64,000 bases of DNA from Marsupella aquatica (GCA_973895155.1 OZ316892.1:22545168-22609167), one strand, 5' to 3'; numbered from the stretch's first letter, positions 8,509-62,320 are shown. Notes: generated by a model not told the origin, from the sequence alone. Translations and numbers: made by a program.

Positions 8509-9102
8509 ATTTGAGTGTTGGATACAAGCTTGGATGATCATCCAGACGATCGGCCAAATCGCCACCTGGGATCTTTTGCCCTGACTGCGCGTCTCAAGCC
8601 CGGTTGTTATGCCTAGCGGGTGTTACATGCTCATGAGCGCCTTCATACGTGATCAATTCATCTCTGGAGAGCAGGCTTCATTCTGGTTTCAGTTTAGTTC
8701 AGAATTCACACAGCTTGAGAGTGTCAGTTTGACACCGTTTGTTCCTTTCTGTAAACAATGCTACCCAATGATCGTCTGTACAGCTGTGGACTAACCTGTA
8801 GAGGTGGGAGTGCAAACTCATTGTACAATTTGGGAGGCGAGCTTGAACCCTTCGTAAAAACTTAACTAAGGCAGAAACAGTCGAACGTAAGATCTGGTAT
8901 GTCAACAATGGAGACAAAGGCATAATATCTCTGTATCTTAAATGCACTAATCTTGAAGCAAGGACAACTACATTCTTTAGCATATTTCCACGTCGAGCTG
9001 TTGCTCAAAGCAACGCCCAACGGGACCTCGTCCAGGTTTCCGAGCTGTGGAAAAAGTTTCCAACTTTACAAAGTTGCAGATCTTGCCTTCTTTTGGGCAA
9101 AT

Positions 9103-12100
9103 ATGGGAAGAAACGACGCGCGAACTTTACGGATTTGTTATCATGTACTGAAATTGAGGGCTTCTGGGCAACAAGGGGTGCGTACTCTTGCCCCTGGCAT
9201 TGGACATAGTTCAGCGTACTCGGATGGGACAGGAAAAGGTGATTGTAGACCTGGTCATCTTGGGTTTAAGCAGTTAAAGCCATCATGTGCAGATGTGCTT
9301 GGCATTCATCGTAGCATTGGACATAGGAACTTTGGGGTGGAGGGAGCAGACATGTATGAGCGGGTTCCAAAACCAGAAGCAGTGGGCAGGGAGCCGGAGG
9401 CAACATCGAAGGTGGTAGAATACCTGAACTCCTTGAGAAATTTTGAGAAAGAAGGAGTGCCGAAAGGGGCAGGTACTGAGTCTGATGAGGGCTTTGATCT
9501 TCGGCGCATGTCCCGTCTGCTCCTTCGCCTAGGAGATCCTCTTTCCAAGTATCTGGTATTGCAATATCGGCTTCAAGCATCTCCCCTAATGATGTTTGTG
9601 TCTTCCTGAGGGCAAAGTTTCGAACATCCTTCCTTTCAATGTACGTTCAGGTTAATTTTGCAGCTGGAACATTTGTCACTAACCTTATCAACGCTCGGAG
9701 TGCATTGTTGTCAATGTGGGGAGGTTTTGAGCATACCGTCCTAAATTGCAGAAATTATGGACTTTTGGCTTATTCACAAGACTATGACAACGTCTGCACT
9801 CTGTCATTGTACTCGAAGTTCGAAACCCTCAACCTCCATTTCTGGCGTTTCTCCAATCTCACAGGTTGTGCACGTTGCTGGAACAAAAGGCAAGGGCTCC
9901 ACAGTCAGCTTTTTAAGCCAAATTCTCCGAGCAGCTGGCTTCCGTGTTGGGTCATACACAAGGTAAGCAGATCCCAGGAGGCATGATTTCTTACATGCAA
10001 AATCGTAGACACCAGCGGGGTCATGTAATGCTCCAGTAAGCCTCAATTGTCCTTCGTCCTCCCCGATGGTCAATTCTTTTGGGTTTTCGTGTGCTCTGCT
10101 TTCTCCACGCTATATCTCTATTTGATTCGGCGTCGTCTCCTTTGAATTCTTTTATGAAGCACGAATGCATTGCAACGTCAGCTAGGCCTGGCATTGATGT
10201 GACTTATCCTCAAATTTTAGGGCTTTGTCGTGGCAGCCCACATATTCACAGCTTACGGGAGCGGATCACTTCTGGGACAACGGGTCAACCCATCTCTATA
10301 AAAGCCATCAATCAACTTTTTGATGATGTGCAAGAGAACGTTCATGAAGCTGTGATTGCTGAGGCTGGTGCACTAACTCACTTTGAGGTGACAACAAGTT
10401 CCTACATAGCCAGCTCACATGGTTCGGGCTCCTCAGAAGGACAGGGAGGATGTATTGAGTGGTAAACGTTGTCTTGCTCTAGGTGATGACATAGTTGTAG
10501 GCCCGAAGTCAAATTCAGTTTGGATACTAGCTTCAACTGTTTGAGCACACTTTACAAGTTGCAATATTCTCATTCTTTTTCGATGGAAATACAGGTGTTG
10601 ACGGCATTGGCATTTGTGCATTTTGCTCGTGAGAGAGTTGACGTTGCTGTCATTGAGGTACGTAATCATATAAATTCTGTGGACCTCCCCATCTATCTGT
10701 GTTACCAGTCTGCAAAAACCATTTCCTTGTGACACATGGAGGTGGGATACACTACAGGCCGGACTTGGAGGAGCTCGAGATGCAACCAATGTGATTCAAT
10801 CATCAGGTCTTCTGGCAGCTGTTATTGTGGGCATTGGAGAGGAGCATTTGGAGGCCCTCGGTGGCTCCTTAGAAAGTATAGCACTTGCCAAGGCGGGGAT
10901 AATCAAACACGGGCGTCCGGTATGACCTACTTAGATTCATGCTTATCTAGAACGTGTCTTATTTAAGACCTGGGTTTCATTTGCAAACATTGTTGAGGGA
11001 GCTGATTCATCATGTATTGGGGTTGTCTCGCCTATTTAGAAGAAAAATATCAGCTGAGAGTCTCTCTGCTTGCAACAGGTCATATTGGGCAGACAAACAG
11101 AGTCCGTTGCAGAAAATCTGGTACGACAGGTAGCAGCGTCAAAGAATTCTGCTGTGCTACCTCGACCTGGCCAGAGTGTTGTATTTAACACGAAGGGCAT
11201 CTGTTTAGACAGTTTCAACTCACATCAGATTTGTGATATCTCAATACCTGAAACAGCTTTAGGTGACAGTGCGGGTGACAGTGATGAGGTACCACATCTT
11301 GAAGTATTTCTGGCTCTGCAGATGAGTCAATTTGGTATTGTGAGAAATGGAGAGTTCTGCAGGTGCAGTGAGTTTTGAAAGTGAGACGATCAGCAGGAAG
11401 CTAACGAAAGATTTTCGCGTGGCTAGGCGTGGATGATTCAAGACTTGAAGGTCCCAGCGTTGGGGGCTCATCAGCTGGACAACGTCGCTGCTGCCATCCA
11501 AACTGCTCTGTGCCTCCGGAGGGAAGGTAAGCTCTGAGTAGTTCTGATTACCGATCACACAGACCCAACGTGTTTGGCGGACACGCACCTGTCCATGAAA
11601 TGCATACTTGTCCAGAAGTGAACGTATCCGATGTATTGCTCATTCGATGGTTTTGCGTGTGTTCAGGTTGGAAAATATCAGATTCAGCTATCAGACTCGG
11701 TGTGGAAAGTACCACTGTCCCTGGAAGATTTCAAGTTGTCAATCCACGTGAAGCCTTGAAGTTGGGCTCTCATGGCTCGACTATCATCTTGGACGGAGGT
11801 AGGCTCAAACTTTATGAAGAGTCTGACCTGGTTCGATCAAAGTCTCAAAATTTGGAGCATTGTAATTTGGCATTGTGTGTCGTTGTTACTGGTTGAATCC
11901 TTTGCCAATGACTACGAATGTTTTTCGTTATGCATACAATCTCTCAGCGCACACATTGGGCTCTGGAGCAGCACTAGCTCGCACTTTAAGAGAAGTATTT
12001 CCGAAGGAGTGTGTAGCCATGGTAATCGCAATGGCTTCAGACAAAGATCATGAGGGTTTTGCGAGGGCAATACTTAAAGGTAACGAAGAAGGCCAGCATA

Positions 12101-12705
12101 ACAGTAAAGGCTGAGCATGATCTTTTCGTGTGTAAACTCTGGACCAAGGAGTGCAGAATGTACATAATAGCAAGGAGTTTCATTTACTAGACTTGTCAGT
12201 GAACTTTGTCATGCCTGGTGTGGATCTTGGATAGACATTGGATCTAGATCGGGCAAGGCTTTTAGTTCAGTTAATTATCTGTGGCCTCTAACTTTGGGAT
12301 TGGGTTCCTGGATGTATTGCAGGGACACAGCCTAAGGTCATTGTGACAACAAGTGTTGATATTGCAGGGAGCTTGAAGCGCTCTACATCGTCAAGGTCGC
12401 TTATGGGTAGTTTTATGCTAGCTGGTAAAGACTTGAACATGACAGTCCTCAATGAACTTGACAGTTACCCTCACAGCAGATCTCCGATCCAAGTATTATC
12501 AAGTAGTACAGATTCCGTAGAGGTTAGATCACGAAGAAGAGAGCAAATGGTTTTACTGGAAGAAGCCGACTCTATCCAGCTTGCAGTAGCAAAAGCTGCC
12601 CAATTGATTCTGGACGTGAATAGGAAGAGACCAGGAGTGATATGTATCACTGGATCTCTTCATGCTGTTGCAACAACCATGTCTCATCTATCAACTATAA
12701 AGTGA
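9103..12705 (+). CDS. DFA: Dihydrofolate synthetase (FolC/FPGS family, DHFS type), probably organelle-targeted; 10 coding exons
   Basis: Exons approx. 9103-9555, 9865-9962, 10237-10387, 10595-10657, 10758-10919, 11079-11288, 11437-11526, 11667-11798, 11948-12079 and 12323-12705. Motifs: [21 protein letters not shown] (plant DHFS-like), P-loop [57 protein letters not shown]. Confidence 0.92.
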
Positions 12706-14529
12706 TCTTTCTGAAGGCGAAATATCCAGGGGCAGATTGCTTGGTTTTCGTTTGCTGTGATCGTCTTGGTTTGTTCTCGAAAACCTCCTGTTGTTTTCCC
12801 ATCCTCATTATATCAAGGCACAGACCTCTTCGTTTTTTCACTTCCTTCAAGGCACAGAGGAAGCTTTCTGTAAACATTCGTCCTGCAGAAACCCTGACCT
12901 AAGTGACGGGTCATGAAGAGTAAAAACTGGATCAATAACTTACGCCGCTAACAATTGTATTATTGGGTCGGTGCCATGCCAATGACGTGTAACACTAGTT
13001 TGATTATTGTAAGGACTTAGGGGGAGGGTTGAGTAGGAGGCGAGGGTGGTTCAGGAAGGGAAAGCTGCATGTCGTTGGATGGAGAAAATTGCCAAGATCA
13101 AGGGCGCACTTTCTTCAGGAAACTACAACCAAGACGTCGTTGCGTGACTAGAGTACGTCAGCGGGAAGTAGTGGCTGCGTGACAGGATCGAACGATCACT
13201 AATCACCTCCCTTTCTGCAACAAAGATAGCCAGATTACTGTCCCAATGTTGAGAGGAACAAATGGTGAAATTTGGTTGTGAGATTCCAGAAGAGAAGCAA
13301 AGCGTTAAAAATAGAAGAATTGGTGAACTTCTTCTGACCTATCAGTACCTCCTCTTCCAGTACTGAGAGAAACATGAGTGCTTGACAGATTCCGGGATAA
13401 GTACAAACGAAAATGCAGTGGACCTACCATTTCAGCATTGACTCCTCGAGCAGGAAAGGGGAAGTGCAATCTGAATCCCTGTTCACAAAAGGTCCTGTAG
13501 GGATAGACGTTGTCATATTGGGAACTGATTTTTGAGAGCCCGGTTAGAGGAGAGAACTGCCACAGTGCAGACTCTTGCCTCGACTCTTGGCAATAGTCTT
13601 TATCCTGTGGCTGAATGTGGTAGATGAAAAAGGAGGTAGGAAGTTTGCCAACCATAGGTTAAAGGGGCAAATCCTGAAGTTTTGTTGTTTTAAGTTTGTT
13701 GGTTGTGTTAGAAGGCAGGTGGAGCTCTGGACAATTGCACCAGAAGGGTTATTTGTTTCAACTCTCAACCAGGAGAAACTTGGACTAGAGTCATGATATA
13801 CATGAGCTACAACTCTCGAGATGAAAAGAAAGGAGATTGTGGTGCAGTGATTTTCATCGTGAAGGCCTTTGCACAAGAGGGTGACAGACTGGAAAGCTCT
13901 TGATTGCCTATCGTCAAAGTTTCTGATCCTTGAAGAGAGGACGGGTGAGATGATACATGAGCATTTAAGTTTTCACTCTACTAGTAACCTACAGCCATTA
14001 TACAGGCATTTGTGGTTTTATAATCTCATAGGAGGAGTCAAAACAGCCTGAATAGCCTTGTTGCTCAACTGTTGATATGCCACCTAAGCAGGTTGAGATT
14101 TTCCCTGATTTTTAGCCTATCAGAATTGAATCTCCCCCTTTTGAGGCCTTTTGGTTCCCTGGCAACTGTAATTTATCATTGTGTGCAGTGTTTCTCTGGT
14201 CTTTTCTCCCTAATTGTGTTTAGTTTGTTTTGTGACCAAGTGGCTGTTTACATGTACATATTCTTTATAGGTTTCCCATTTTATATCTTTTGGCTTGCAC
14301 ATGGCTCATTCACTACTTTCCCAAAAGTAACTCACCACTTTTTAAGTTGTATTATGTTATCATGTCATTGGGCCCTGGCTGTTCTTTATTTAAAGTTTTC
14401 TTGGGCGTGTTCAATTTGAAATATTGTTAAGAAGGGAAGAGATCCTTGGAGCTTGCGCACCTGGGGGGGGGGGGGGGGGGGGTTCAGTTTACATTTTCAT
14501 ATTTTTTAGAATTTCTACAATTAGGTCAA

Positions 14530-14886
14530 TGTCATGCCGAGGGACAGTGCCTCTTATGCACATCAGCATGTCCCTCTCATGCCCGCTAGGTATGTAGTTA
14601 GGGCTAGTGTACTACCTGAGTTAGCGACATGTTCTTGTAGCAAGTCTGGGCCGTTCTTGAAGCAAATGTGCTTGTTAGTGTGACGCTAGGACTTTGCTTG
14701 CTTAGGGCATGTCTTTCTTTGTTGGTTTTTAGTTCTTCTTGAATCGTTGTTGACAGAGCTCAGACAGTGTTCGTCAGTTCCGTACACGGGATTCACACAG
14801 TGATTCATTAGATGCTCCCGGCCGATCTTGGCATCCTGCCGGTTTCGATTCGATTTCAGTACATTTGTTTCTCTTACGCCTTTTAT
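14530..14886 (+). repeat. Terminal repeat A1 (357 bp)
   Basis: Matches 23550-23906 with 5 substitutions, all transitions. Confidence 0.95.
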
Positions 14887-15946
14887 TCAAAAAGAACTCT
14901 GGAGTTGGCGGTGAGGGGAAGAAGATAGAAGACATTCTTGTCTCAGCTGCTTATGTCGGTTCAAACAATTTCTGTCAAAGCTGGTGCAATTTCTTTGAGC
15001 GACAATGGAGGGACGAGTTGAAATTATGGGTTCAATATGGTGTTAAGTGTATACTTAACATAAGTATACACATAACCCTCCCGTTGGAGCCTGACTCTTT
15101 CTTCCCGGTTGTATCCGGGGACCCTTTGCTGCTTCCGACTATGGCTGCCGGCTGCTGACTGCCACTACCTTTTTCGGGCCAATTTTGTGATGTTTTTGTA
15201 GGAGGGGCTATCTGCATAGGGCCGCGCGCCCCTTCTCGGGAGTCACAATTTCACCAGGGCACGAGGCCCACAGAACCTTTCAGGAGGGGAGCGAGTGTGC
15301 CAGATGATCATTAAGAGGGCGAAGGGAATTTCCTTTCAGGAGCTCATAAGGAGGGGGAGGGGGCGCGAAGCCCTATGCAGGGCTCGAGCCCATAAAGAGG
15401 GGCCCATTTTTGCTCACTCGCCTCTTCCTGCCACCCGACTGTCAGTGGCCAATTCTCCCTTTTCCGGTTATTTTCCACCTCTCGACATTTTCTTCTCCCT
15501 GCCACCGGCCTCGGTGTATACACATACGGGAGTGCATAGGGCCGCGTGCCCTCCCTACTACTCCCTTCGACACTTTTCCCGGCTGTGACCTCCTTCGGGC
15601 TGCGATTTACTGTACTTCTTTCCGGCCGCGACCTGCTTCCGGCCAAGTTTTTCCCCCGGCCGCAACGACTCCAACAAAGGGAGCCGCACCGACATTGGGC
15701 ACCGGCCGGTGTATCTTACGTGTATACACATAAGGGAGGGGCCATTTTGTTGTTTTTATTCCTTTTTATTTTGACCCTCTTAGGCAAGGCCGGCATACAC
15801 ATAGGGGCCAATTTCATTCTCTTTAGCCCCGGCCTCCTTGCTTCACGCCGTTTATTTTATTTGTGGGTTTCACTTCCTAGCCTTGGGGCTTCCACTCCTT
15901 TTCTTGTTAGTTTCTTTCCCATCGGCACCCCGGGTGAGCATGCAGC

Positions 15947-17221
15947 ATGTCAGCAGAGGAGCCGAGTCGTAGCAGCTCATCACCACCAACACCCCGGTAC
16001 CACTTACGAAGTGATCCACGACCATTGGTGCCAATTTCATTGGAGTCTCGGCAATTTCGGCGACGTCAGCAAACAACAGCAGCACCCACACCACGCAATC
16101 CTTCTGCTACATTTGGCGGTCGCTCCACCTCTACCCTGAAGCCTGCTATCACTTCTTTGCCCTTTACTCCTTCTGCATCAGTGATTGTTCCAGCTTCACC
16201 GACATACAGCATGGATGCCAGTCACTCATCTGGCCGCATTGAGCGCTTCAGTGGGCGGCCAGGCACTGTTTCTTTGCGTGAGTTCAAATCCACTTTCTAC
16301 ACTGTCGTTTACGAATTGGAGCTGAAGTACGGCAGCAATTTCACAAATGCTTTTGCATTTAAGCAGCTAGCCAGGTATGTGCACCATGAGGCTTTGGATG
16401 TGTATGAGCAGCACTCTCAATGGCTGCTTGCTGTCACACAATTGCCTAACCCTACCTATGCCAATGCAATTGCGACAGCCTCACAATTGGCCTTACAGAA
16501 TGCCATTGCAGCCCATGCTGTTGCTCCTGCCATTTCCCCTCCTACTCCAGTTCCTACCACTGCGCCAGTTACTCCCACTGTCTTGGCACAGGCTACATCA
16601 GGCATTTCTCCCACCATTGATTCTCCTGCCTTTGCTGATCCAGTCACTGAGTTTTTCCAGGTTCTTGAATTGGAATTCCCAATCAAGAGTGCTGACAAAA
16701 TCATGCAGTTGGCCACCTTTGTGAGACAGCGCGATGAAACATTGAAGATGATGTATCGTCGGCTTCTCAAGCTGAAGGAGGACACCCAGAGCATCACTGA
16801 CCTGGAAGCTGCTCATCGCTATCTTCGCGCATTGGAGGGCACACTAGCTCTCCATTTGCAAGTGTTGCAGCAAGTATTCTCAGAGTTTGGAGACAGCTAC
16901 ACCCTGCTCAATGTCTATGACACTGCTGAGAAACTTGAGTTGGCCCATGCACATTATGAGGCCAGTATTGCGCGTCCACCGCAATCCAGGTACCAGGCTG
17001 CTGCCCCTACACTGGCCACCCCTTCCCGTGTGCCACAGTATGGTTCCAAGACCAAGCCAGCCCATGCTGCTTTCATGCTGCCATCTTGCAACTACTGTGG
17101 TAACCCCAATCACAAGGCTAATGAATGTGATATTGTCGCTGAGGACCTATCTTGTGATTTTTGCGGGAAAGTAGGTCACTTGGAGGCAGTTTGTTTTGCC
17201 AAATTCTCGGAAAGGAAGTAG
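15947..17221 (+). CDS. Retrotransposon Gag with two CCHC zinc knuckles
   Basis: IERFSG capsid-like start; knuckles CNYCGNPNHKANEC and CDFCGKVGHLEAVC. Ends at a TAG that is followed in frame by the next ORF. Confidence 0.85.
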   Translation: MSAEEPSRSSSSPPTPRYHLRSDPRPLVPISLESRQFRRRQQTTAAPTPRNPSATFGGRSTSTLKPAITSLPFTPSASVIVPASPTYSMDASHSSGRIERFSGRPGTVSLREFKSTFYTVVYELELKYGSNFTNAFAFKQLARYVHHEALDVYEQHSQWLLAVTQLPNPTYANAIATASQLALQNAIAAHAVAPAISPPTPVPTTAPVTPTVLAQATSGISPTIDSPAFADPVTEFFQVLELEFPIKSADKIMQLATFVRQRDETLKMMYRRLLKLKEDTQSITDLEAAHRYLRALEGTLALHLQVLQQVFSEFGDSYTLLNVYDTAEKLELAHAHYEASIARPPQSRYQAAAPTLATPSRVPQYGSKTKPAHAAFMLPSCNYCGNPNHKANECDIVAEDLSCDFCGKVGHLEAVCFAKFSERK

Positions 17222-17272
17222 CTACGACAGCAGGCCCCTCATCCTGCTCCTGCTTCCACTCCCCCACCAGCT

Positions 17273-20160
17273 ATGAGGGCTCCTACTGCATCCGAGACTG
17301 CATCAGTTGCTCCTCCTTCCAGTGGCAAAGCACCCAGTGCCAACAAATTGCCCAAGCAGCCACAGAAGCAACCAGCTCAGAAGGAGGCTCACAACGCACA
17401 GGCAACTCAACTCCAGTCTCTGACTCATGAGGTTGAGTCCCTACGTGCCCAACTTGCCAACATCAAAGGCAAGTCAACTGCCTCTACTGGTCCTTCTCAA
17501 CCGGCTGGTCACGTGCAACCCATCCCTGGCCCAGGCACCACTGACAGTTCAGCACCTCTACCCCGCTCTTTCTATGGCTTGCCATTTGATGCTCATATGG
17601 GTGAGTGTGTGTTGTCCTCTGCTACACAGCCTGGCCTTACAGCAGAATTTTCAGATTCATTCTGTCCTTCCTATTTTGCTTACCAGCAGGCCAGTGCTGC
17701 CTCCCGTATTGCTCCCACACGCCGCATTGTACAGGCTGATGGTCTTGCTGCTGGCCCTATGACTAGAGCGAGGGGAGCTCGGGCTGTCATGCCCCAATCT
17801 TTTCAGCCACTCACACTTGCTGAAGAGCGCACCTTGTTGGCGAGGGGGGAGGGAGCTGCAGCTACATCCATTCCACCACCAGGTGCTGCTGACATTTCAC
17901 AGGGAGTTATTTCTCCTGAGCTGCTTGAGCATTTCACCTCCGGTATGGCACAAAAGATTCTTACAACTCCACTTTTTAGTTGCCATAATTTACAGCTGGA
18001 TGCTAGAGCTGTCATGAGAGCGCTAGAGGGCTCATTGCATTCTTCATCAGCTCCTGTGCCACCAGTTTTGGAGGTCCCATCTCATGTACATACTGGACCT
18101 TCTTCTTCTCCATTGCATGCTTCCATTGGTTTGGCTATCCCAGTACCAATTTCTAGTGGTAGAAATGACAGTATTGCTGCAGATTGTGTGACCAGAGCTA
18201 CACTTGATTCTGGTCATGCTGCTCCATCTTTCCTGGCTATGCTGTTGAGTGGGAAGACCGTGGACACTAACTCCCTTCACAAGGTACCTCATCATTTGCC
18301 GAAAGTGGTACCTAGCGACAGGACTTTAGTTTCCACCACCATTGCCATTGTTGACAACAGGAATTCAGTGGTCAAGTTGGAGGGTCACACTCCTCAAGTG
18401 GTCATGCTAGACATAGGTGCTCAACCAGTGATATTGGGCATTCAGTTTGCCAAGAAGATGGGACTGTTGACTGATCATTTACAACAATCCAAGTGGCACA
18501 TTCGGACTGCTAGTGGCACTGTGGAGGATGTGTTGGGTGAGAGCTCTACTTTACTCACTCTCACTTTTAATGGAGGTACTGATCAGGAACTGCATTTCCT
18601 GGTCAGATGTTTGGTTACCAATGCCACTACGTATGATGTGCTCATTGGCCAGGAGGCTTTGTTCCCACCAGGTTTTACCATTGACAACTGGCATGAGCAT
18701 GCATACTACAGAGTTGATTGGCATACGGATGGCTCACACTTGGGCTACATTCCACTTGATTTGCATGGTGCCCATACACCTATGGCTCACCACTGTGTGT
18801 TGAAATCGGTGCACACAGCTACCTATGTCAACCACCCATTGCAGGATTGGATTGAGGAGGATGATGATGAGGTGGCTGCTGCACGTATAGCAGCACTTTC
18901 CAGCAATATGGATCATCAACCAGAGGTGGTACAACGGCTCCAAGCAGCCCATGGACCTTTGGTGGCTACATTGCGCAAATTTGAGGACCTTGGGCAGCAC
19001 AATGGACAACCAATAGCCCCAATCTTGAGCGCACCAGTTACATGGACTCCTCCTCCGGATGCCCTTACATTGCTTGAGCTTTTTGGTGGCATTTCTACAG
19101 GCCTGGAAGCTCTCCTACAGTCCGGCATGGTGGTGAAGCAGTACATCCACGTGGACATTGATCCAGGTGCAAGGCAAGTGGTTGAATCCCGTCTGCTGGA
19201 ATTTTCAGAGCGATTTCCTCAACAGTTTCCACACAGTGCCTGGAAGTCTGAATTTTCTTTCTTTCCTCCAGATATCCAGCTTGTCCAGCACCGGCACTTA
19301 ACCCTTCTTGGCTCCCTTGATTTGATAATAGCCGGTTGGGAATGCCAAGGGTTTTCAGCTGCTGGTCATGGTGCTGGATTGCATGATTCTCGTTCTGGCC
19401 TTTTCACAGCATTGGTTCAGGTTATCACCTGGGCTCAATCCCTTTACCCTGTTGTTGGTTATATCATTGAGAACACTCCATCTCAGTTTGACCAGCGTTC
19501 ACAGGTCAAAGAGGATTTCAGTGTGGTCCAACACTACTTTGGACCACCCCTTCTCATTGATGCAGTGCATTGTGGTTCTTATGCACATCATCTTCGTAAC
19601 TTTTGGACTAACCTGGTACCAGTTTCCTTGCTGGAGTTAGCTCTTCACCACACATCCAGGGACACTAACCTCATAGTGGACCAGATTTTGGATCCTGACA
19701 GTTCTTGCCAACCAGTTACACGGCAAGAGCCAGCACCTTGGTATCCAGCCAATACCATTGGACAGCCCCGTGCTGCTTGGCCTACATTTGTGTTCTTTCC
19801 AGGTGCACATGCTTTTCAGGGTGATGGTCCTGGCCTGGTTTATCAACATTCTACCGGTACATGGGATGAACCTAGTCCTGAGGAGAGAGAACAGGCTATG
19901 GGCTTCCAACCCGGTACTACAGGTCACACCAAGATCACCAGGTTGGCCAGGAATGCTTTACTTGGCAGGGTAATGGATCTTAATGCTCTCACTTGGCTTC
20001 TGGTTACTTGCATCCTTTTTCAGATGTACATTCATCCAGCATCAGGAGTTCCAGCCCTACCACTCCATGGTGCTGCTCCATGGCACCCAGACCAGGTGCA
20101 CTTACCTCTATTCAACACTCACCGCTTCAGTCCAAGTGTTGGGGGGGAGGAGGTCCCTTG
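17273..20160 (+). pseudogene. Pol N-terminal part: aspartic protease (~18390-18700) plus DNMT3-like C5 cytosine methyltransferase (~19064-20000)
   Basis: Protease motifs VMLDIGAQ (canonical DTG; D at 18410) and YDVLIG. DNMT motifs: I LELFGGISTG, II VDID, IV DLIIAGWECQGFS (Cys at 19343), VI YIIENT, VIII AHHLRNFWTNL, IX EREQAMGFQPGTT, X ARNALLGRVM. Confidence 0.85.
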
Positions 20161-20268
20161 TAATGTGGCTATATTATTTCTGAGTTTCATGGTGTGGATT
20201 AGACCAGAGCAACAGATACAGCAGGCCTTGGAGAGGCCTCATCACCTTATCAGCAGCATGCTAGCAGC

Positions 20269-23200
20269 TTGGCCAGTGGAGAGGCTGGCACTTATGGCTC
20301 TTCAAGCACGAGTACATCAGGTCCTATTCCTAGTGTTGCCAACTACACATTCATCATGGGCAACCACCTGAGTAAAAGACAGAAGGACCAGCTGCTGAAT
20401 TTGCTCCTCAAGCATGAGAATGTGTTTGCTTTCTCTATGAAGGACTTGGGTAAGTGCAAGACTATGCAGTTCTCCATTGAGTTGGCTGATGAAACACCTA
20501 TCTTCAGGCGGAGACACCGTTTGAGTAAGCATGAGTGGCAGCTGGTGGATGAGAGATGCCAAGAGCTCTATGAAGCTGGTCTTATTCAGCCATCTACATC
20601 AGATTTTGCAGCAGCTACAGTGATGCCAGCAAAGAAGGATTTCAGTGGATTGTGGTCAGAGAAGCGCATGTGTGGGGACTACAGGCCACTGAACCTGGTC
20701 ACACCCCAGGACAGGTACCCCATGCCACGGCCATAGGAGCTATTTGACAGCATTGGAGACTCAGACATCTTCACTCTTGTGGATCTAAGGCAAGGCTTTA
20801 ACCAGATTTTGCTGCTTGCAAAGGACCGCAAGAAAACAACTTTCCATGGTAGTAACCAACTATGGGAGTGGTTGGTGATGCCATTTGGCTTGAAGAATGC
20901 GCCCATATTCTTTCAAAGAGTCATGGACCAGGTTCTTCAAGGTGCTGAGTTTCTGAAATGCTACATTGATGATGTGTTGGTCCACAGCAAAGGATTTGAC
21001 CAGCATCTACTTGACCTTGAAGAGCTATTCATGAGGCTTAAGAAGGTGAACCTAAAGATACACCCCAAGAAGTGTGAATTTGCTGTCAAATCAGAAGTAT
21101 ACCTTGGGCACCGCATTCTTCCAAATGGAACCATGGCTCACTGGGCCAAGGTGGTATCCATCTTGGAAATGCCCACTCCTACCGATGTTCACACTTTGAG
21201 GAGTTTTATTGGGTTGTGCAATTACTACCGGATCTACATCAAAGATTTCAGTACCATTACACACCCATTGTATGCTTTGTTGAAAAAGAATGTGACTTGG
21301 ACATGGAGTACAGATGCTGAGGCAGCATTTGCCACTTTGAAGGAGAAGCTCTCAGAATACCCGGTGCTGAGAAGACCTGATTTCAGCAAGGTCTTTGTGC
21401 TACACACAGATTGGAGTGCCCTTGGGATTGGTGCCATTCTGGGCTAGCATGATGAGGAAGGTAAAGAGTACGTCATTGCCTATGCATCCAGGAGCAACAA
21501 TCAGGCAGAGAGTCATTATTCTTCTTATGAGGGTGAATGCCTTGCTGTTGTGTGGGCTGTCATACATTATAGGCCCTACCTCTATGGGACCAGGTTTGTT
21601 CTCTACACCGACCACCAGCCCTTGAAGTGGTTGATGACCAACGACAAGCTTACTGGCAAGCTTGCTCGTTGGGCGCTCATACTCCAGGAGTATGATTTTG
21701 AGGTAATTCATAGGCCTGGTGTGACACATCAGATTGCTGACACTATGTCCCACAGCCCTTTGATTACCTTTGATGATTCCTCAGATGCACGGCAAGATTT
21801 TGACCAGGTTTCTATCCTGCCTACATTTCATGCATCGACCTATCTTGCTTTGCTGCCATGCTATGTTGTTGACCAACCTGTGGTGGACATATGGGAGGAC
21901 AGCGACACTCTGAGATTTCTGCAGCATGGGGAGTACCCCACACATGTTACTACTGCCCAGAGAGACCGAATTCAGCAAAGGTCCAAGCGCTACTTGTGGA
22001 AGGGAGATCATCTCGTGCGCTGCTTGCCAGACAGGGAAGTGGTGGTTCCACCTATTCATGAGAGGGTTGGCCTTATCCATAAGGTACATTCTGAGCTTGG
22101 TCATTTTGGTGTTAAGAGGACTTACAGCCTCTTGGTCCCTCATTATCATTGGAGAGGCATGCATGGCCAGGTTCGAGATGTTATTGCCCGGTGTGATCAG
22201 TGTGATAGGGTGAGGACTTCCTTCACATCTCGACAACCCACACTTCATCCACTCCCTATTCAGGGCATGTTTTATCACTGGTCATGTGATTTGGCTGGAG
22301 AATTACCCCTCACATCTCGGGGTAATCTCTACATCATGATCATGATAGAGCATTTCTCAAAGTGGATAGAACTTGTGGCATTGCCGGATAAGACCTCCCG
22401 TAGCACCAGCCAGGCATTCCTGCAACAAGTTCTCAACCGCTTTGGAGCTTGTGCAGAATGTCTCACTGACCAGGGCTCAGAGTTTAGAGGAGAGTTCTAG
22501 GAGCTGCTTGATCAGGCCCTCATTGATCATTGTCGGACATCACGAGATCACCCACAGGCAGATGGCTTGGCAGAGCGCATGGTTCAGACATGCAAGAAGG
22601 GTCTCCGGAAGATTTGCCTCACCAAAAACAAGGAGGATTGGGACCTGGCCTTACCCTACATTGCCATGGGGTATAGGATGTCTAGACATGCATCATTGTC
22701 TAACTTTTCTCCCTACTTCTTGTTGTTTGGTCGTCACCCAGTTCCACCTTCTGCTATTGCTGCTCACATGCTTCAGGTGGTGGACTTGGATTCAGCTGTG
22801 ACTTGGTCTGATGTGATCTCTGAGAGGGCTGCCCTATTCAGGAGGGTTATGCCCATGGCCATGGAGAATTTGGCCATTGCACAACACAGGGACACACTGC
22901 GTTATGCACACACACGAGGGGGCACTTTTCAGCCCAAGGTCAGGAAGTTTGATGTGGGAGATTTTGTGTACTTGCAGCAGCAAGCTAACGACACCCTGGA
23001 CACCTCTACCAATCGTACTATTCTCAGGGTTAAAGCTATTCGACCGTCTGGAGTGCTAGAGTTACAAGGGGCAGATAGGCGCACAATTGCTGACAATGCC
23101 AAGAATTGTGCCCCTTGTCATCTGCCTAACCTAGATCCCACCATTGTGACTTCTACCTGGATTCCACCTGTGGACTACCCTTGTAAGGTGTGTTTGCGAA

Positions 23201-23334
23201 TTGATGATGCTGACCAGATGCTGCTGTGTGACAATTGCAATGGAGGGTACCATCTTTTCTGCCTTCGGCCTGAACTTACCCAGGTGCCAGAAGGGTTATG
23301 GTTTTGCCCTTCCTGTGCTCCACGTGCTACCTGA
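20269..23334 (+). pseudogene. Pol C-terminal part: RT, RNase H, integrase and PHD finger, in one frame with 3 internal TAG stops
   Basis: RT: RMCGDYRPLN, DLRQGFNQI, MPFGLKNAP, YIDD (20962-20973). RNase H: TDWS, YASR, ECLA, TDHQPL. Integrase: H-H-C-C (HSELGH...CDQC) and D-D-E (CDLAG, TDQGSEF, GLAER). PHD C4HC3 at 23182-23316. Stops at 20734, 21445 and 22498. Confidence 0.92.
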
Positions 23335-23372
23335 ATTTTCTTCAGCCCTCCTTTTGGCTGTGGTCTGGGGGG

Positions 23373-23547
23373 ATACAGAGGTTTACACCTCCACTACGTA
23401 CATACCACTTCATTTGCTTTTTCTTGGCACTTGTGAATGTGATTGGACTTTTTCTATGCATGTTGGTTGCTAGCAGCTTGCACATATGCCTTGCCGGTGA
23501 CTGTATGTTTTCGATACACTATGGCTTCGATACTATATGTCACGACA
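23373..23547 (+). repeat. Terminal repeat B1 (175 bp)
   Basis: Matches 23907-24081 with one mismatch. Preceded by a G6 run and ends CACGACA. Confidence 0.95.
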
Positions 23548-23549
23548 GC

Positions 23550-24081
23550 TGTCATGCCGAGGGACAGTGCCTCTTATGCACATCGGCATGTCCCTCTCAT
23601 GCCCGCTAGGTATGTAGTTAGGGCTAGTGTACTACCTGAGTTAGCGACATGTTCTTGTAGCAAGTCTGGGCCGTTCTTGAAGCAAATGTGCTTGTTAGTG
23701 TGACACTAGGACTTTGCTTGCTTAGGGCATGTCTTTCTTTGTTGGTTTTTAGTTCTTCTTGAATCGTTGTTGACAGAGCTCAGACAATGTTCGTCAGTTC
23801 CGTACACGGGATTCACACAGTGATTCATTAGATGCTCCCGGCCGATCTTGGCATCCTGCCGATTTCGATTCGATTTCAGTACATTTGTTTCTCTTATGCC
23901 TTTTATATACAGAGGTTTACACCTCCACTACGTACATACCACTTCATTTGCTTTTTCTTGGCACTTGTGAATGTGATTGGACTTTTTCTATGCATGTTGG
24001 TTGCTAGCAGCTTGCACATATGCCTTGCGGGTGACTGTATGTTTTCGATACACTATGGCTTCGATACTATATGTCACGACA
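23550..24081 (+). repeat. Terminal repeats A2 (23550-23906) and B2 (23907-24081)
   Basis: A2 is a copy of the 5' end of the element and B2 is a copy of 23373-23547. Together they run TG...CA. Confidence 0.95.
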
Positions 24082-27000
24082 TCAAGTGCATGTGGGTGCA
24101 AAACATGCTAAACCACCCTGGGAAATTTCTGACCTTGGGCATGTTGTTACCATCACAATTTTCTATATGGTCTCATTTCAGGATTAGGGCTACCCTACAC
24201 ATTTCAACCATTAAAATTCTAGACGTAAGTAATGGACGATGAAGTCCTGAATAAATAGGCCTAGCAGAAGCACTCCAGCCCTAGGGAGCCATAGTACTCG
24301 GAGCTAGCAATTGAAGATGTCTCCGAAGAGAGCTCAGCCATTCGTGCGGAGCCACCATTGGAGTCACTAGGCAGAGCCATTTGCATCAACAAAAGTGGAT
24401 GCACAACATAGAGCGGGCTCAACTTTTATTAGCTCAGGGGTTCTTGAAGAAAGAGTGCCATTGGTGGAGTAGTGTTGAGCTAAGACATGTCACCATGGCA
24501 TGCACATGAACATCCAACAAACAAGTAGTCAACACAGAGAGATATGTGATTCATGTTCTTTGAGGCTACGTTCACCCAAATACCCCGGCAAACACATGAA
24601 AGCTTTACTACACTCTATACCCATTGGCCCTGGGGGGTCACTTCCACTGAAGTGACATTCACGTGCAACAAAGTTTAGAGTCATTTAAATGGTTTTGACG
24701 GAATACTTATTAAGTTTTCATTCAATGGAAATATATGGTTGTTTAATTTCAAAATGCATATGTGTCATCCCATGATTGGTGTTGTACAACATTATATATA
24801 GTGACTTAGAGGGGTCATAACTGACCCACACTTTGGCACATGATGTATGGCCCTCCATATAATGAACCGACCCACCCCTTCCCCCCCGGCCTTTTGAGCG
24901 TTGGCCATACCAAATCTTGGTAGCATAAGCCCTCTCTATCTCTCAACTGGCTCCGTCACAATGAGCTTGAGTTCCTCTTCCACAAGCAAACACTAATTGG
25001 ATATATAGGATGCAGCATGGCTAACCTAATTAAGTAGTCCACTAAGGTTAGCCTAATTGCAGCTACAGCCATAACCCTACACCTAAGAATAAATGCTTAA
25101 CAAGTAGGCCGGGTATGAGGCTTCTTGAATCAAAAATGGAGTGTTCACCCATGCACAGAACCAAGACTCCAAGTAATTCATGCAAGCATTTTTGTTTGAG
25201 GTGAAAATTGGGTAGATTCCACCTCTCCAAAAGTATTTGCGACTTTTGGCAAACTTTGGGTAGGTTTCCTAACTTCATTATCTTGTTGCACAGACCCATT
25301 AGCCAAAGTTTAATGATCATCCTTAGATCTAAGAAGATCTGACGGTCCACATAATCTAAGAAAATTAGAGAATGAATATTCTTAGCATCTTCTCCTCCAC
25401 ACAAGGGCGACACTTGCCACACCAACCAAAAACAAGAAATAATAGTAAGCTCGCTCATGCCATCAAGCTAGTAAATTGAAAAGTGGATGTCATCCAAGGT
25501 ATTTAAAGTTGGGATAATTCATTTGTCTGTTGAGCAAACCCAATACAGCAATTTTTTAATTTTATAAAACCGAAGTCTGTGAAATCCCACCTAAAAAGAA
25601 CACTCAGCCACAACATTTGAAGTTTGGATCTATGAATCTCAACTCAAGTGAGTTACAACACACACACATGCCTATCTAGGAGCCAACACAACAATTTGAA
25701 CAGGGATAATTAACTCCTGTGTTGGGCAAATCCAATACAAGAATTTGAGACTAACACAGCAAATTTGAAGATACAATAATAATACAATACTCCAGTCAAG
25801 AAAATTATTTGGTGGGATCCCACATAGAGCAAAACCATAAAGCCCGCACCACACAAGAACGTCGCGCAATACAGGATCCACCAAGAAAGGTTTTGAAATG
25901 TCTGCAACACCAAGAAGTTTTGAGCTGTGCAGGGTCTCACGAAGTAATTTCCAGTTTTGGGCTGTGTAGGGTCTCACCAGTAATTTCCTCTACTTACTTC
26001 ACTGGCAAACATAGATCATATCCACAATGGATACGATCTTATCTACGAGAAAAACTCTTCAGCATTTGGGGGATTGAATTTTTGGTTTGGGGGATTGAAT
26101 TTTTGGTGTGTAGGAGAGGACTGGGGCATTTCTAGGCTATATAATTAATGCTACTTATGTAAATGAAACAAAATTCTGTAGACCATTTTTCCTGCAGAAC
26201 ACCACACGGGAGTACGCTTCATATCTCGCTCGTGTGATCATTTACTGTTTGCCAAAATAACGTAGGAGTGTCTTAAAATACCCGTGACTTCAATCAGAGA
26301 ATCAACGGCCTAATGAGTCCCCAGAAGAAAGGGCATCACTTGGACCGTCGATTGGATCTCCCCCCACAGTAGCAAGCGAGCTCAGTTTAAGAACTCCCGC
26401 ACCCCGAGTGGAATATTGTCGCACTATTTATTACAGTAGCAAAGCCCGACCGCTGCCTCGGTAGTCACAAGTACGGTTCGTACCTGACCCCACGGGGCAC
26501 GGGCTACAGGGTCCGAGCCCAGACAAGATTGATGACGCTGAGTTAAATGAGCGTCACGCTTCATACGAATCCGACGGCGCTAAATGCATATTTCTTCAAC
26601 CCGCCTCTGCATCGGGCGGCACAGATGAACCGGTCAACTGAACCCGCACGACGCCTCGTTACATCTTAACTCGACATCCCCTGCCCGACGGGCGGTCGGT
26701 CGTCTTTAAGGACAAAACCACTGCTCCGCTCATTTAGGGCCCTTTATGAAGGGATGGTGCCTTACATACCGTAGTAACTAGTAAGTGCCGCCGTGACCAG
26801 AGGCAGAGGAAGCAGAGCAGGCAGAGGACGAGGCGAGGGCTCCAGACTACAGAGCCCCCGGGTCCAGGCGTACAGGTACAGAGTGTGCCAAATACGGTAC
26901 TCCAGTGCAGAACAGAGCAGAGCAGCGCTGAGGCGGAACAGAGGAACAGAGGCATTGCACCAGACGAACAGAGTCGTATGTTATTACTACTGTACTGTGG

Positions 27001-27940: not shown

Positions 27941-29889
27941 AGTAGAGTTGAGGTCACACGTGTATCTGGTCTGATCTTTGATCTTCCAGCAGCGAGAGAG
28001 GGAGTGATTGGGGATATGGGTCTTTCATCACGTGAAGAAAGGGGGATTGTGATTTGAGTGTGGCTCAGTGGCTGTGTCACTTTGTGCAGTACGGCGAAAA
28101 ACTGGCAGAAGTGTTGAGAGAGCGCTATTGCGTTGGTCATGGAGGATAGAGTCTGCAGCAGTCCGTCTGTCTGAGCCGTCCTCCTCTCGAACGGCCACCC
28201 GGTGTTGTGTGGTGTGGTGGGCTAAGCGAGCGAGCGAGCGAGAGCACGCACGCACTCAATCCATCTATCAATCAATCAGGGAAGCTGGGTTCCGGTCGGC
28301 TTGTACCGTAGAATTGATGTATGTCCCTGTAGTCCAGTAAGCCACACACTCCCCTCCCGTGCTTCTTTTGTGATTGAAATACGCGTCCGTATCTGGGCAA
28401 CGTGAGGGTACACCGACCGATCTTGGAGTCACTCACTTGCTGCTGCTGTTGTACCCGAACCGAAAGTTGAATAGAATCGGAAGGATCTGGCTGGTGGGAC
28501 GCGCGTCCCTTCGCAGGAGCAGAGGACTTGACTGGACTGGACTGGACTGCTTTGCCTTGAGGGATCTGCCGCTAGGTACGACGCGATCACTGCTAGATCA
28601 AGACGCAACGTGATAGATTGATTGATACGCGCGACGCTGCAACTGAATGTAGTATCGGTTTTGACTTGCAGAAAGGATCTGCTCTGCTTCTGCAACACCA
28701 GAATCGAGCATTCTGTGGTAGGTTCTTACTTTCTCCGGTGCATATCTATGTCGCGCTGCTGCTGTCGTCGGTTAGGGGCTGTGCTGCGGGTTCTGCAGCA
28801 GAGGCCATCTTTCTTGCCAGATAACGTGAAGGAATTCACCACAATCGCAGTGTTGGTGAGTATTCTTCTTCACCCTTTCATTCAGTCAGCTTCTGTTCTT
28901 GATATATCCATCCATCTCGCCCACTCAAGAGAGGAATAGAGAGTAGAAGCCGAAATAGTATTCCACACCGGTGATGGTTGGGATTACTGGTATCTATCAG
29001 TTCGTGATACTCTGTTTTGGATGTGTCCTGAGAGGGACAAGAATGGCATCCGTAGAATAGAATCTGTCTATTGTGAAGTGTTCGAATAGTCAGTCAGTCA
29101 TGGAGCCGGTCCATCAAGCCGTTCTTCTCAGTATGACGGTGTGCTCCGATGTCATTCGTTAGTTTTGAGCATTACAATGAATTTCCTCGAGTGGGTGGGT
29201 GTTTAAGTACATTTGGGTAGTGGATGAAGTTATCTCTCCTGTGCGCCTGCACCATCTGTCAGTAGTTGTGCTCTCCTACCGATTGTAGCGGCTTCTCAAG
29301 GGCCGTTAGACTTTGTAATGCTGTAGTGGCTGGAGACGGTTGTGTTTTGTCGTTGTCCATGACCTTGGTACATTCGAGGGTATGAGATCGGGATTTGCAA
29401 GAGCTGACTCTTGGAGGAGTCAGTGAGCTCTGGGAAGCTACCAGATTATTGGGTGAATTTTGGAGTAATTATTTGACAAATTTGATTGTATTTCGGTTTG
29501 TGCTGCTGCGTAAGGCAGCAAGCAAAGCCCCCCTCGGAATGCTGGTTGAATGTAGTAATCAGGTCGAGGCAGAACTTTAGCTGGGTGTAAGATTTCAAAC
29601 TGCGAAAAGAGGATGAACATTTGGCACGTCAGTCAAAAGAGAGCTGAAGAACTCTGAGGAGCTGGATGGCGTGATTTATCGGCTACATTTGCGAACGGCA
29701 ATTTGGCCACCGAGGAGCTAAAGGCCGTGATTGATTGACTGCATTTGGGACGGCAAATTTCTTCTCACTGAAATGAATCAATAAAGTAGCAGCTGAGTCG
29801 TGTTTGCTGTATGTGTGCGTGGTGGCTGACTCAACAGGTGACACGAAGTAGAAGCGAGTATTGGCGGGATTCGACTGTCGGGAGATAAG

Positions 29890-31077
29890 ATGAGACAGAC
29901 AGACAGAGAGACAACAATGAGGGAAGTGCTCCTCATCGATGGTGAACATACAGAAGATCAAATGATGGATTCGTCCCTTTGGGGTAGTTTGCCCGACCAT
30001 CTGGTGGAGAAAATTCTGTCCCGACTTCCAGTCCAAAGCTTCTCTCGCTTCAGAACCGTTTGCAAAAGCTGGAACGAACTAGTCCACTCTCGGAGCTTCC
30101 TCAAAGCCTGCGAAAATGTCCCATCAGCGGGACCTTGGTTCCTCGTCTTTACAGGTGACAAGAACAAGACCGAACCGACCTACGACCCCTCTCTAGATAA
30201 ATGGCATCGGATACGCCTCCCATCCCTCCCTCTCCAGTTCGACCCTTTTATCATGTCATCCGATGGGGGACTGATCTGTTACTACACCTTCGAAGGTTTC
30301 GTCGTGGTTCTGAACCCCTTGACCAAGGCCTGCCGCTCCCTTCCTCCCATGGAGGCCTCTCTGGCCTGCGTTCACATGATATGTATGGTGACAGACAGGG
30401 CAACAAAGAGCTATCAGGTCTTCGTGGCAGGCAGGGCAAGGAACGAGGAGGGAATGTACATCATTGAAGTGGAAGTTTATGACTCTTGTAACGATTCGTG
30501 GTACAGCGTAGGCAATTTGTCCTCGAAGATTAGCATCATCCGGAACCAAGGAGGGCGAGGGGCCGTTTATGCCAGTGGATGTGTTCATGTCATTTGTTAC
30601 GATGAGCCGAAGGGTTTACTGGCCTACAGCTTAGATGACCACGTCTGGACTCGGATTGCCACTCCGCTTCCGGAGTCCGTTTCTTATGAGGAGTTGGTGC
30701 AGTGGCGAGAACGGATTTTCATGGTTGGTGGTCGGGAAGATGGTGACTTGATCGCCAGTATCTGCATTTGGGAGCTTCACACTGCCAGCTGGGAGTGGAT
30801 TCTGGTTGACAAAATGCCGGACGATCTGTTCCAGGATTTCTTCCTGCCTGATGAAGCGGACGACGTCTCGCTAAGCTGCACGGGCTGTGGGAATTTAATT
30901 CTTCTTCTCTCTACGAAAGCAACTGTGGACTGCTCTGGCCCACACCGGCATGTCCTGTACGACTTTGAAAAGAGACAGTGGACGATGGTGCAAGGGTACG
31001 CACCGGATGAACACATCATGGGGTCGGGTAGCTCCGAGGCCATCGGATATGAACCTCGTCTGGATGCCGTTGTCTGA
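29890..31077 (+). CDS. F-box protein with kelch/beta-propeller-like C-terminus (single coding exon, about 395 aa)
   Basis: F-box LWGSLPDHLVEKILSRLPVQSFSRFRTVCKSWNELV, followed by YDPSLDKW, SDGGLIC, VLNPLTKACRSLPPM, EVYDSCNDSW and a C-terminal YEPRLDA typical of plant F-box/kelch proteins. The start could be a downstream Met. Confidence 0.92.
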   Translation: MRQTDRETTMREVLLIDGEHTEDQMMDSSLWGSLPDHLVEKILSRLPVQSFSRFRTVCKSWNELVHSRSFLKACENVPSAGPWFLVFTGDKNKTEPTYDPSLDKWHRIRLPSLPLQFDPFIMSSDGGLICYYTFEGFVVVLNPLTKACRSLPPMEASLACVHMICMVTDRATKSYQVFVAGRARNEEGMYIIEVEVYDSCNDSWYSVGNLSSKISIIRNQGGRGAVYASGCVHVICYDEPKGLLAYSLDDHVWTRIATPLPESVSYEELVQWRERIFMVGGREDGDLIASICIWELHTASWEWILVDKMPDDLFQDFFLPDEADDVSLSCTGCGNLILLLSTKATVDCSGPHRHVLYDFEKRQWTMVQGYAPDEHIMGSGSSEAIGYEPRLDAVV

Positions 31078-43520: not shown

Positions 43521-43779
43521 AAACTGTAAATGGGCACGGGTACACACCCCATCTAATTAAAAGACAGCTCAGGTATTTAAGCTAGGGTTATGATCGGAGT
43601 AGGGTAAGCAAGGAAAAGATGCATTAGATGGTAGTTTCAATGGTCTAATGCATCTTTTCATGGGTTGGATCCTTCTATCAATTTTTGAATATATTTTTCT
43701 CCAATATGTTAAGTGCAAGGCTGGCGACTTGAAACAACATCAACATAATGGGAGCTTAGGGTAGGGATGGAGGAATGGG

Positions 43780-62024: not shown

Positions 62025-62320
62025 TCTTTAGCATAGTGGGTAGCTTTAGTTGTGAAGAAGAGTTTACCAAAGCTTAGCAACACAGGTAGACTAGTTGGCA
62101 GTTCGGGCATCCCTTTCTTGAAGGGGATCCCTCTTTTGGGGTATCTTTCAGGTTGTGCCAGACAAGAACCATGATTGGAAACCACTCTGTACAGTTACAA
62201 GTGAATATGTGTATCAAAAGGCCTATGTAGTGAAACTGTAGAATTTGGAAGAAACTTTTCCTGGTTGGGTAACATTGAGCTTCATTGTATCAATTTTGGA
62301 AACTTCTGTCGTCATGAGAT

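What the first reader, a model, noticed from the sequence alone, without database searches (positions are those of the whole stretch)
14530..24081. Retroelement combining its own DNA methyltransferase, a histone-reader integrase and non-LTR split termini
Seen: one TSD-bounded unit encodes gag-PR-DNMT-RT-RH-INT-PHD and has A...B-A-B termini. Known: each trait has separate precedents. DNMT-carrying Gypsy elements are known from dinoflagellates and the charophyte Klebsormidium, PHD-integrases from Selaginella Selgy-type elements, and split direct repeats from PAT/TOC/Ngaro tyrosine-recombinase elements. I know of no described land-plant family combining all three. Inference: a retrotransposon lineage that can both write (5mC) and read (H3 tail) chromatin marks and replicates by a non-standard route.
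Basis: partly seen in the sequence, partly recalled or inferred. Interest (0 to 1): 0.93.

Follow-up and report, generated by a model that had tools for sequence, protein, structure and literature searches.

The report
Liverwort retrotransposon with permuted terminal repeats
This is a young, decaying liverwort jumping gene that encodes a DNA-methyltransferase-like domain and a predicted histone-reading finger, and whose rearranged end repeats, shared with relatives from peat moss to green algae, likely arise because its integrase cuts its DNA copy in the middle of a repeat instead of at the ends.

Summary
14530-24081 is a Ty3/Gypsy element (gag-PR-DNMT3-like-RT-RH-INT-PHD) with A...B-A-B repeats and a 4-bp target duplication, proved by an empty-site contig. 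The host is a leafy liverwort. It is not a chimera: copies in Sphagnum-like contigs share the domains and the termini.

The novelty claim needs correcting. De Mendoza 2018 already reported DNMT3 plus DIRS-like repeats in Klebsormidium KnitGypsy-Dnmt3, and Klebsormidium proteins of this lineage carry the PHD.

New here:
- The lineage reaches land plants and chlorophytes (247 protein clusters at E<1e-30), with two DNMT positions and members without a detectable DNMT.
- The polypurine tract lies before B, and a likely Tf1-type self-priming site follows A. Primer and site covary across three families.
- The real LTR is therefore B+A, and the integrated ends fall at an internal palindrome, GACA-GC-TGTC, also found in Chlamydomonas Gypsy entries.

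Best model (inferred): ordinary reverse transcription, end-joining of the cDNA, then integrase cleavage at that palindrome. Methyltransferase activity and histone binding are untested, and this copy is broken. The mirror product A-B-A...B was not seen, which is unexplained.

The parts
14526..14529 (+). Left target-site duplication (TCAA)
   Evidence: empty-site contig
14530..14886 (+). A1: left terminus; inferred 3' part of the LTR (rest of U3, R, U5)
   Evidence: A end fixed by loose ends at the matching place 23906
14731..14744 (+). Predicted transcript start and self-primer, complementary to the site after A1
   Evidence: 13 of 14 Watson-Crick pairs; pair probabilities 0.71-0.94; centroid fold
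14885..14898 (+). Predicted primer-binding site (self-priming type; no TGG start of a tRNA-type site)
   Evidence: covaries with the primer in Sphagnum-like loci and L081
14887..15946 (+). 5' untranslated region; little cover by contigs at 85% likeness, so probably variable among copies
   Evidence: table 2
15947..17218 (+). gag with CCHC knuckle, ending at a premature stop
   Evidence: continuous into PR-DNMT in relative P0002
18344..18730 (+). Aspartic protease, catalytic motif altered in this copy
19040..20041 (+). DNMT3-like C5-cytosine methyltransferase domain; motifs I, IV (Cys) and VI (EN) present, motif VIII altered in this copy
   Evidence: AlphaFold pLDDT 95.6; Foldseek DNMT3A E 4e-18, target TM 0.85
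20575..21147 (+). Reverse transcriptase (YIDD), one in-frame stop
21313..21717 (+). RNase H, one in-frame stop
22051..23160 (+). DDE integrase (zinc finger, core, C-terminal part), one in-frame stop
23161..23334 (+). C-terminal PHD finger and the natural stop
   Evidence: Pfam 3e-12; best PDB matches WSTF, CHD4, lid/KDM5, ATXR5, BAZ2B
23367..23372 (+). Polypurine tract (G6) directly before B1
   Evidence: same position in 26 of 27 sister loci examined
23373..23547 (+). B1: inferred 5' part of U3 of the true LTR
23544..23553 (.). Palindromic B|A junction GACA-GC-TGTC, the inferred internal integrase site
23550..23906 (+). A2
23907..24081 (+). B2: right terminus, joined to the end of A2 (inferred cDNA end-to-end joint)
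24082..24085 (+). Right target-site duplication (TCAA)

Best explanation
This is a recently inserted, now broken copy of a green-lineage Ty3/Gypsy retrotransposon whose true LTR is likely B+A and whose integrase likely cuts the cDNA at an internal palindrome, which would give the permuted A...B-A-B form seen in the genome. Steps: (1, inferred) Transcription starts inside A1. (2, strongly inferred) The first 12-14 nt pair with the site just after A1 and prime the minus strand, as in Tf1. (3, position shown, use inferred) The G-run before B1 primes the plus strand, so the cDNA is [B-A]-body-[B-A]. (4, inferred) The primer-defined ends, A-end and B-start, are joined, either as a 2-LTR circle before integration or by host repair just after strand transfer. 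(5, inferred) Integrase cuts GACA-GC-TGTC in the left LTR, drops the 2 central bases and inserts with a 4-bp duplication (duplication shown). The DNMT3-like domain is predicted to methylate CG in the new cDNA. The PHD is predicted to steer insertion by binding H3 tails. Both are untested, and neither is needed for steps 1-5.
For: The G-run is directly before B1 in the window and in 26 of 27 sister loci examined (two of them repeat an insertion already counted); what precedes A2 is the end of B, not a purine tract. Primer complementarity reaches at least 12 of 14 pairs in 18 of 24 distinct left ends, lies 31-34 nt after a TATA-like motif in 20 of 24, and is reached by 9 of 4800 shuffles. Three families have three different, matching primer/site pairs: window, Sphagnum-like loci, and L081 with 13 of 13. 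G-run + short B + the same palindrome occurs in 5 of 9 distant loci (L081-L084, L087). Of the other four, L085 and L086 end soon after the PHD, and L088 and L089 lack a PHD and look like another lineage. It also occurs in 9 of 11 palindrome hits in the Chlamydomonas repeat library. The A|B joint is full-length in 9 of 15 distinct insertions and altered in 6: 2-3-nt losses, one substitution or extra G, one deletion of about 150 nt. The target duplication is an exact 4 bp in the window and 7 of 11 sister loci with both ends (L003, L017, L023, L030, L042, L047, L052; L017 and L023 are one site), near-exact in 3 and absent in 1. Precedent: foamy-virus integrase cleaves a palindromic LTR-LTR junction and loses the 2 nt between CA and TG (PMC1180852 abstract and section 9). 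DNMT dN/dS between window and sisters is 0.269/2.14.
Against: A circle has two equal B|A junctions, so the mirror product A-B-A...B is expected, yet 0 of 23 distinct sister left ends (21 with at least 400 nt of flank) have B before A1. No cDNA, circle, transcript start or enzyme activity was observed. The window family has no TATA-like motif at that spacing. Two-nt losses at an ATAT joint can arise after insertion. B1 and B2 of one copy are only slightly closer to each other (0.088) than across copies (0.107-0.126), and are nearest neighbours in 7 of 26 cases. The Klebsormidium DNMT showed no activity in yeast, called inconclusive by the authors. L083 and L085 show no DNMT by HMM.
Confidence: 0.66

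Rival explanations
1. RT-only route, like models recalled for PAT/DIRS: extra template switches, using RNA that runs into B2, build a linear cDNA that already ends at A-start and B-end, and integrase then processes ordinary ends.
For: It would explain why only A...B-A-B is seen. Most A|B joints are precise (9 of 15). In the L081/L082 family the A end and B start share a 7-nt sequence.
Against: The primers define B-start and A-end, not the integrated ends, so precise stops at the palindrome would still be needed. The palindrome with its 2-bp spacer is kept from liverworts to chlorophytes. There is no sign that B1 and B2 form separate lineages (cross distance 0.115 against 0.107 and 0.126).
Confidence: 0.2
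2. Integration from head-to-tail cDNA multimers or tandem read-through copies; integrase or recombination resolves them at B|A, and the single-unit A...B form is the main product.
For: About 11 distinct sister right ends have B only. L081 assembles as a circular unit B-A-body. One B-B tandem joint was seen.
Against: L017 (B-A-B) and L023 (B only) share one insertion site, so monomers can be secondary deletions or assembly collapse. Monomers lack the second A needed for strand transfer. No tandem full units lie in the window.
Confidence: 0.1
3. One-off chimera or assembly artefact.
For: No whole genome was held to inspect other copies.
Against: Full A...B-A-B with all domains in L003, L017, L018, L030, L038, L065 and L071; empty-site contig; same ends in algae.
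Confidence: 0.01

Closest known systems
KnitGypsy-Dnmt3 of Klebsormidium nitens (de Mendoza et al. 2018, PMC5890265; parts 1-4 of 7, term passages and 3 supplements searched; figure images and the main supplement not seen)
   Same: Gypsy domains, a DNMT3-related domain in Pol, and DIRS-type A-coding-B-A-B repeats. K. nitens GAQ93235.1 has gag-PR-DNMT, 29% identical over 577 aa, E 1e-58.
   Different: Land-plant host, very many copies, recent insertion. The PHD is not mentioned in that text. The text seen gives no mechanism, polypurine tract, primer site or target duplication for the repeats.
Chlamydomonas Gypsy families (Gypsy-3, -6, -14a, -14b, -18, -7a_cRei; PMC9940879 passages and supplement passages)
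   Same: Library entries show G-run, short B, GC, A, B. Gypsy-7a has a PHD, and its left LTR lacks the final 8 bp of the right.
   Different: Catalogued as sequences and not explained in the passages seen. Gypsy-7 to -9 start their internal part with TGG, like tRNA-primed elements. DNMT content not checked.
PAT/TOC/Kangaroo and Ngaro tyrosine-recombinase elements (PMC4157794 passages)
   Same: A1-B1-A2-B2 layout.
   Different: DDE integrase instead of a tyrosine recombinase, TG...CA ends and a 4-bp duplication.
Tf1/Tj1 and plant Tcn1 self-priming Ty3 elements (PMC4600332, PMC6317226 passages)
   Same: Primer site complementary to the predicted RNA 5' end.
   Different: Those have two whole LTRs, and most chromoviruses have a chromodomain; here the LTR is permuted and there is a PHD.
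EpiLTRs (bioRxiv 10.64898/2026.05.21.726589, section 8 and passages)
   Same: Retrotransposon with a cytosine methyltransferase and a chromatin reader.
   Different: DNMT4-related enzyme plus DAM plus chromodomain; the authors call it distinct from streptophyte Gypsy-DNMT3.
Foamy-virus 2-LTR junction cleavage (PMC1180852, abstract and section 9)
   Same: Integrase cuts a palindromic junction and 2 nt are lost.
   Different: There the palindrome is formed by the cDNA ends; here it is encoded inside the LTR and is inferred to be the only attachment site.

Membership tests
KnitGypsy-Dnmt3-type (streptophyte Gypsy-DNMT3) | Gypsy domain set with DDE integrase | tested here: met
KnitGypsy-Dnmt3-type (streptophyte Gypsy-DNMT3) | DNMT3-related domain inside the polyprotein | tested here: met
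   homologous to K. nitens GAQ93235.1
KnitGypsy-Dnmt3-type (streptophyte Gypsy-DNMT3) | A-coding-B-A-B repeats | tested here: met
KnitGypsy-Dnmt3-type (streptophyte Gypsy-DNMT3) | Same RT lineage as the K. nitens element | tested here: inconclusive
   K. nitens P0272 and P0262 are close hits but not sister to the window in a tree rooted on one distant outgroup. That these proteins are the paper's copies is my inference.
KnitGypsy-Dnmt3-type (streptophyte Gypsy-DNMT3) | Whether the published element already shows a PHD | not testable with these tools
   figure not held; 'PHD' 0 times in text and 3 supplements; other K. nitens proteins of the lineage have it
PAT/TOC/Ngaro (YR elements) | Tyrosine recombinase | tested here: not met
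   no such Pfam family in the six element ORFs; rve integrase instead
PAT/TOC/Ngaro (YR elements) | Split direct repeats | tested here: met
PAT/TOC/Ngaro (YR elements) | No target-site duplication (recalled) | tested here: not met
   4-bp duplication with empty site
Phygy/Selgy (REXdb) | NCGN target preference (Phygy) | tested here: not met
   none of the exact duplications TCAA, GGTC, CCAA, TTTT (twice), ACAA, CCAC fits
Phygy/Selgy (REXdb) | RT placement against REXdb references | not testable with these tools
   REXdb sequences not in the held supplements
Chromovirus Tcn1 / Tf1-Sushi | Chromodomain after integrase | tested here: not met
   PHD instead
Chromovirus Tcn1 / Tf1-Sushi | Self-priming site | tested here: met
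   sequence complementarity only
EpiLTR | DAM + DNMT4-related DNMT + chromodomain | tested here: not met

The most novel reading that the evidence does not exclude
A large, unrecognised branch of Ty3/Gypsy elements, from chlorophytes to liverworts and peat mosses, has abandoned end-based integration. Its integrase attacks a palindrome inside the LTR of an end-joined cDNA, which makes a 2-LTR-circle-type joint an obligatory step, and its DNMT3-like enzyme may methylate the CG-rich repeats beside that palindrome to decide which of the two junctions is cut.
Probability: 0.45. Interest if true: 0.9.

Novelty: new variant of a known kind. Interest (0 to 1): 0.74.

Why it matters
Circular two-LTR DNA is usually treated as a dead end for retroviral-type integrases, and junction cleavage has been proposed mainly from foamy virus and HIV work. 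A natural lineage whose insertions carry the footprint of an internal cut would make that question testable, in Chlamydomonas strains where Gypsy-7a is already moving and in Marchantia. These elements lack paired whole LTRs, so LTR-finding pipelines probably miss or mislabel them, and their DNMT ORFs appear in gene sets as hypothetical proteins (e.g. Marchantia Mp_4g09160). Bryophytes thus carry many transposon-borne DNMT3-like genes, which bears on how their methylomes are read.

Tried and rejected
- No whole host genome is held, so copy forms were not counted in the host.
- Summed contig depth is about 1e5 inside the element and about 1e2 in the flank. This shows a large family but is not a copy number.
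- No RNA holder listed.
- Viral contigs gave no relatives in 2 scans.
- The protein atlas did not answer.
- Earlier scan findings: none in 3 look-ups.
- The minimum-energy fold of 14731-14905 is no more stable than shuffles (z 0.79); only the centroid and pair probabilities support the primer helix.
- B-only monomers as proof of 1-LTR-circle integration: rejected, because L017 and L023 share a site. L081's circular contig as proof of a circle: rejected, it may be repeat collapse.
- CpG depletion (o/e 0.22-0.29 from the protease region to the integrase, 0.44 in gag, against 0.52-0.79 in two host exons) as proof of self-methylation: rejected, host silencing gives the same.
- All 80 JGI loci were found through the DNMT, so they cannot show how often close sisters lack it.
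- The clade counts printed mislabel 2 Scenedesmus and 2 Closterium rows. Corrected, 34 PR-DNMT-RT rows separate from 128 RH-DNMT-INT rows (support 0.57, or 0.92 without P0051).
- The REM1 paper was not held. Craig's thesis, Repbase, REXdb and GyDB could not be consulted, and any of them may describe these termini.
- Searches that found no description of the mechanism or of a land-plant family.

Full report
Observation. The unit 14530-24081 carries two repeat pairs, A (357 nt, 5 differences) and B (175 nt, 1 difference), in the order A...B-GC-A-B. It begins TGTCA, ends GACA and is flanked by TCAA. A contig of run X1 joins 14525 to 24082, the empty site, which fixes both ends and the 4-bp duplication. 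Contigs from four runs leave the element at 24081 into unlike flanks. Pfam gives gag knuckle, protease, C5 methylase, RT, RNase H, integrase and PHD in that order; the first two are below their curated cut-offs. This copy has four in-frame stops, a frameshift and altered catalytic motifs. Laid contigs of other copies differ from it at the three of these breaks that one search lists, so those lesions look private. About 1% divergence between the repeats points to a recent insertion.

Host. A window exon of EDC4/Varicose is 89% identical to Calypogeia fissa, 73% to Marchantia and 61% to Ceratodon. The host is most likely a leafy liverwort (inference).

The DNMT and PHD. The domain at 19040-20041 matches DNMT3A best by sequence (E 6e-6) and by fold (pLDDT 95.6; Foldseek E 4e-18). 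Among 158 relatives, a motif-IV Cys was matched in 132, EN in 150 and the motif-VIII Arg in 127. Window against 34 gapless sister domains gives dN 0.269 and dS 2.14; all 34 sisters are themselves broken by stops. The PHD is closest to those of WSTF, CHD4, lid/KDM5, ATXR5 and BAZ2B, which I recall as binders of unmodified H3K4. Neither activity was tested.

Not a chimera. An exhaustive search found 247 clusters at E up to 1e-30. Of 172 proteins then held, 36 read RT-RH-DNMT-INT-PHD, as does Scenedesmus KAF8056149.1, and others read gag-PR-DNMT or DNMT-RT, as in Marchantia, Closterium and Klebsormidium. The two DNMT positions separate in both the RT-RH tree (support 0.925, one distant outgroup) and the DNMT tree, which fits one old capture and one move. 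RT-INT relatives are named in Calypogeia, Riccia, Klebsormidium, Haematococcus, Tetraselmis and Volvox. Eighty of 463 matching metagenome stretches were fetched. Flank genes of two cluster with Sphagnum proteins. Seven hold the whole A...B-A-B unit with all domains, 13 distinct insertions end in B-A-B, one ends in B-A plus 24 nt of B, and about 11 end in B only. One B-only copy shares its site with a B-A-B copy, so monomers may be secondary.

Prior art. De Mendoza et al. 2018 (PMC5890265, Fig. 4c legend) state that KnitGypsy-Dnmt3 has DIRS-type repeats with Gypsy domains, so DNMT plus split repeats is a known pair. Klebsormidium proteins of this lineage carry the PHD. A 2026 preprint names streptophyte Gypsy-DNMT3 and describes other writer-plus-reader elements. 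I found no land-plant description and no mechanism. The figure itself, the main supplement of that paper, Repbase, REXdb, the REM1 paper and Craig's thesis were not seen and may bear on this.

Mechanism. Two signals show where reverse transcription starts. A G-run sits directly before B1 in the window and in 26 of 27 sister loci. The 14 nt at the end of A1 pair with a motif inside A: at least 12 pairs in 18 of 24 distinct left ends, against 9 of 4800 shuffles, and 31-34 nt after a TATA-like motif in 20 of 24. The window and Sphagnum-like families differ by two compensating pairs, and the distant L081 has a different perfect 13-mer. This is the Tf1/Tj1 self-priming signature. By the standard LTR scheme the LTR runs from the polypurine tract to the primer site, so it is B+A and the cDNA is [BA]-body-[BA]. 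The integrated ends instead fall at the palindrome GACA-GC-TGTC inside that LTR. Joining the cDNA ends and cutting the left palindrome yields exactly A...B-A-B. The A|B joint is full-length in 9 of 15 insertions and scarred in 6. The same G-run, short B and palindrome occur in 5 of 9 distant loci, including one with the other DNMT position (L087) and one without a detectable DNMT in its contig (L083). They also occur in 9 of 11 palindrome hits in the Chlamydomonas repeat library (file cut when stored), with Gypsy-14a a whole A...B-A-B entry. The active Gypsy-7a ends its internal part in ACA-GC, and its left LTR lacks the last 8 bp; it is probably the same arrangement. Foamy-virus integrase cuts a comparable junction with loss of 2 nt.

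Against. The mirror product A-B-A...B was seen in 0 of 23 sister left ends, so something must favour one junction: methylation, strand asymmetry or collapse of that product. No intermediate was observed. The B1/B2 homogenisation test was weak. An RT-only template-switch route remains possible.

Verdict. Real and widespread; a land-plant variant of the KnitGypsy-Dnmt3 kind rather than a new kind. The permuted LTR with an internal integrase site is the part worth pursuing.

Noticed in passing
window 17222-23334 against L003/P0001: The liverwort element is much closer to copies in Sphagnum-like contigs (RT-RH 84%, DNMT 70%, 72% nucleotide over 5 kb) than its DNMT is to Marchantia's (about 40%), while host EDC4 is 61% identical to a moss. 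Old liverwort-moss horizontal transfer or lineage sorting; dS is near saturation.
   Followed up: partly
P0005, P0008, P0009, P0013 (Marchantia Mp_4g09160, MARPO_0063s0090, MARPO_0204s0011, MARPO_0020s0163): Annotated hypothetical proteins that are gag/PR-DNMT ORFs of this lineage and could be mistaken for host methyltransferases.
   Followed up: partly
L081-L089: Eukaryote-type retrotransposon contigs inside prokaryotic genome bins, likely contamination; L088 and L089 are a short Ty3 element without PHD.
   Followed up: partly
window 43778-47842: Long nested inverted arms about 4 kb apart (I1, I3, I5, I6); possibly a foldback or Mutator-like DNA transposon.
   Followed up: no
window 24448-25200: Repetitive sequence just right of the insertion, with high contig depth and weak likeness to 6771-7061; probably another small repeat family.
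   Followed up: no
window 29842-31077: Single-exon F-box/kelch gene.
   Followed up: partly
window 8926-12705: Exon-like ORFs that I recall as resembling folylpolyglutamate synthase; Pfam gave no hit on the two ORFs tested.
   Followed up: no
window 62320-63731: Cluster of short tandem duplications (periods 51-107 nt).
   Followed up: no
ends of B in the window and L003-L079: Two or three short CG-[17 protein letters not shown] lie just before the palindrome; candidate integrase-binding or methylation sites.
   Followed up: no
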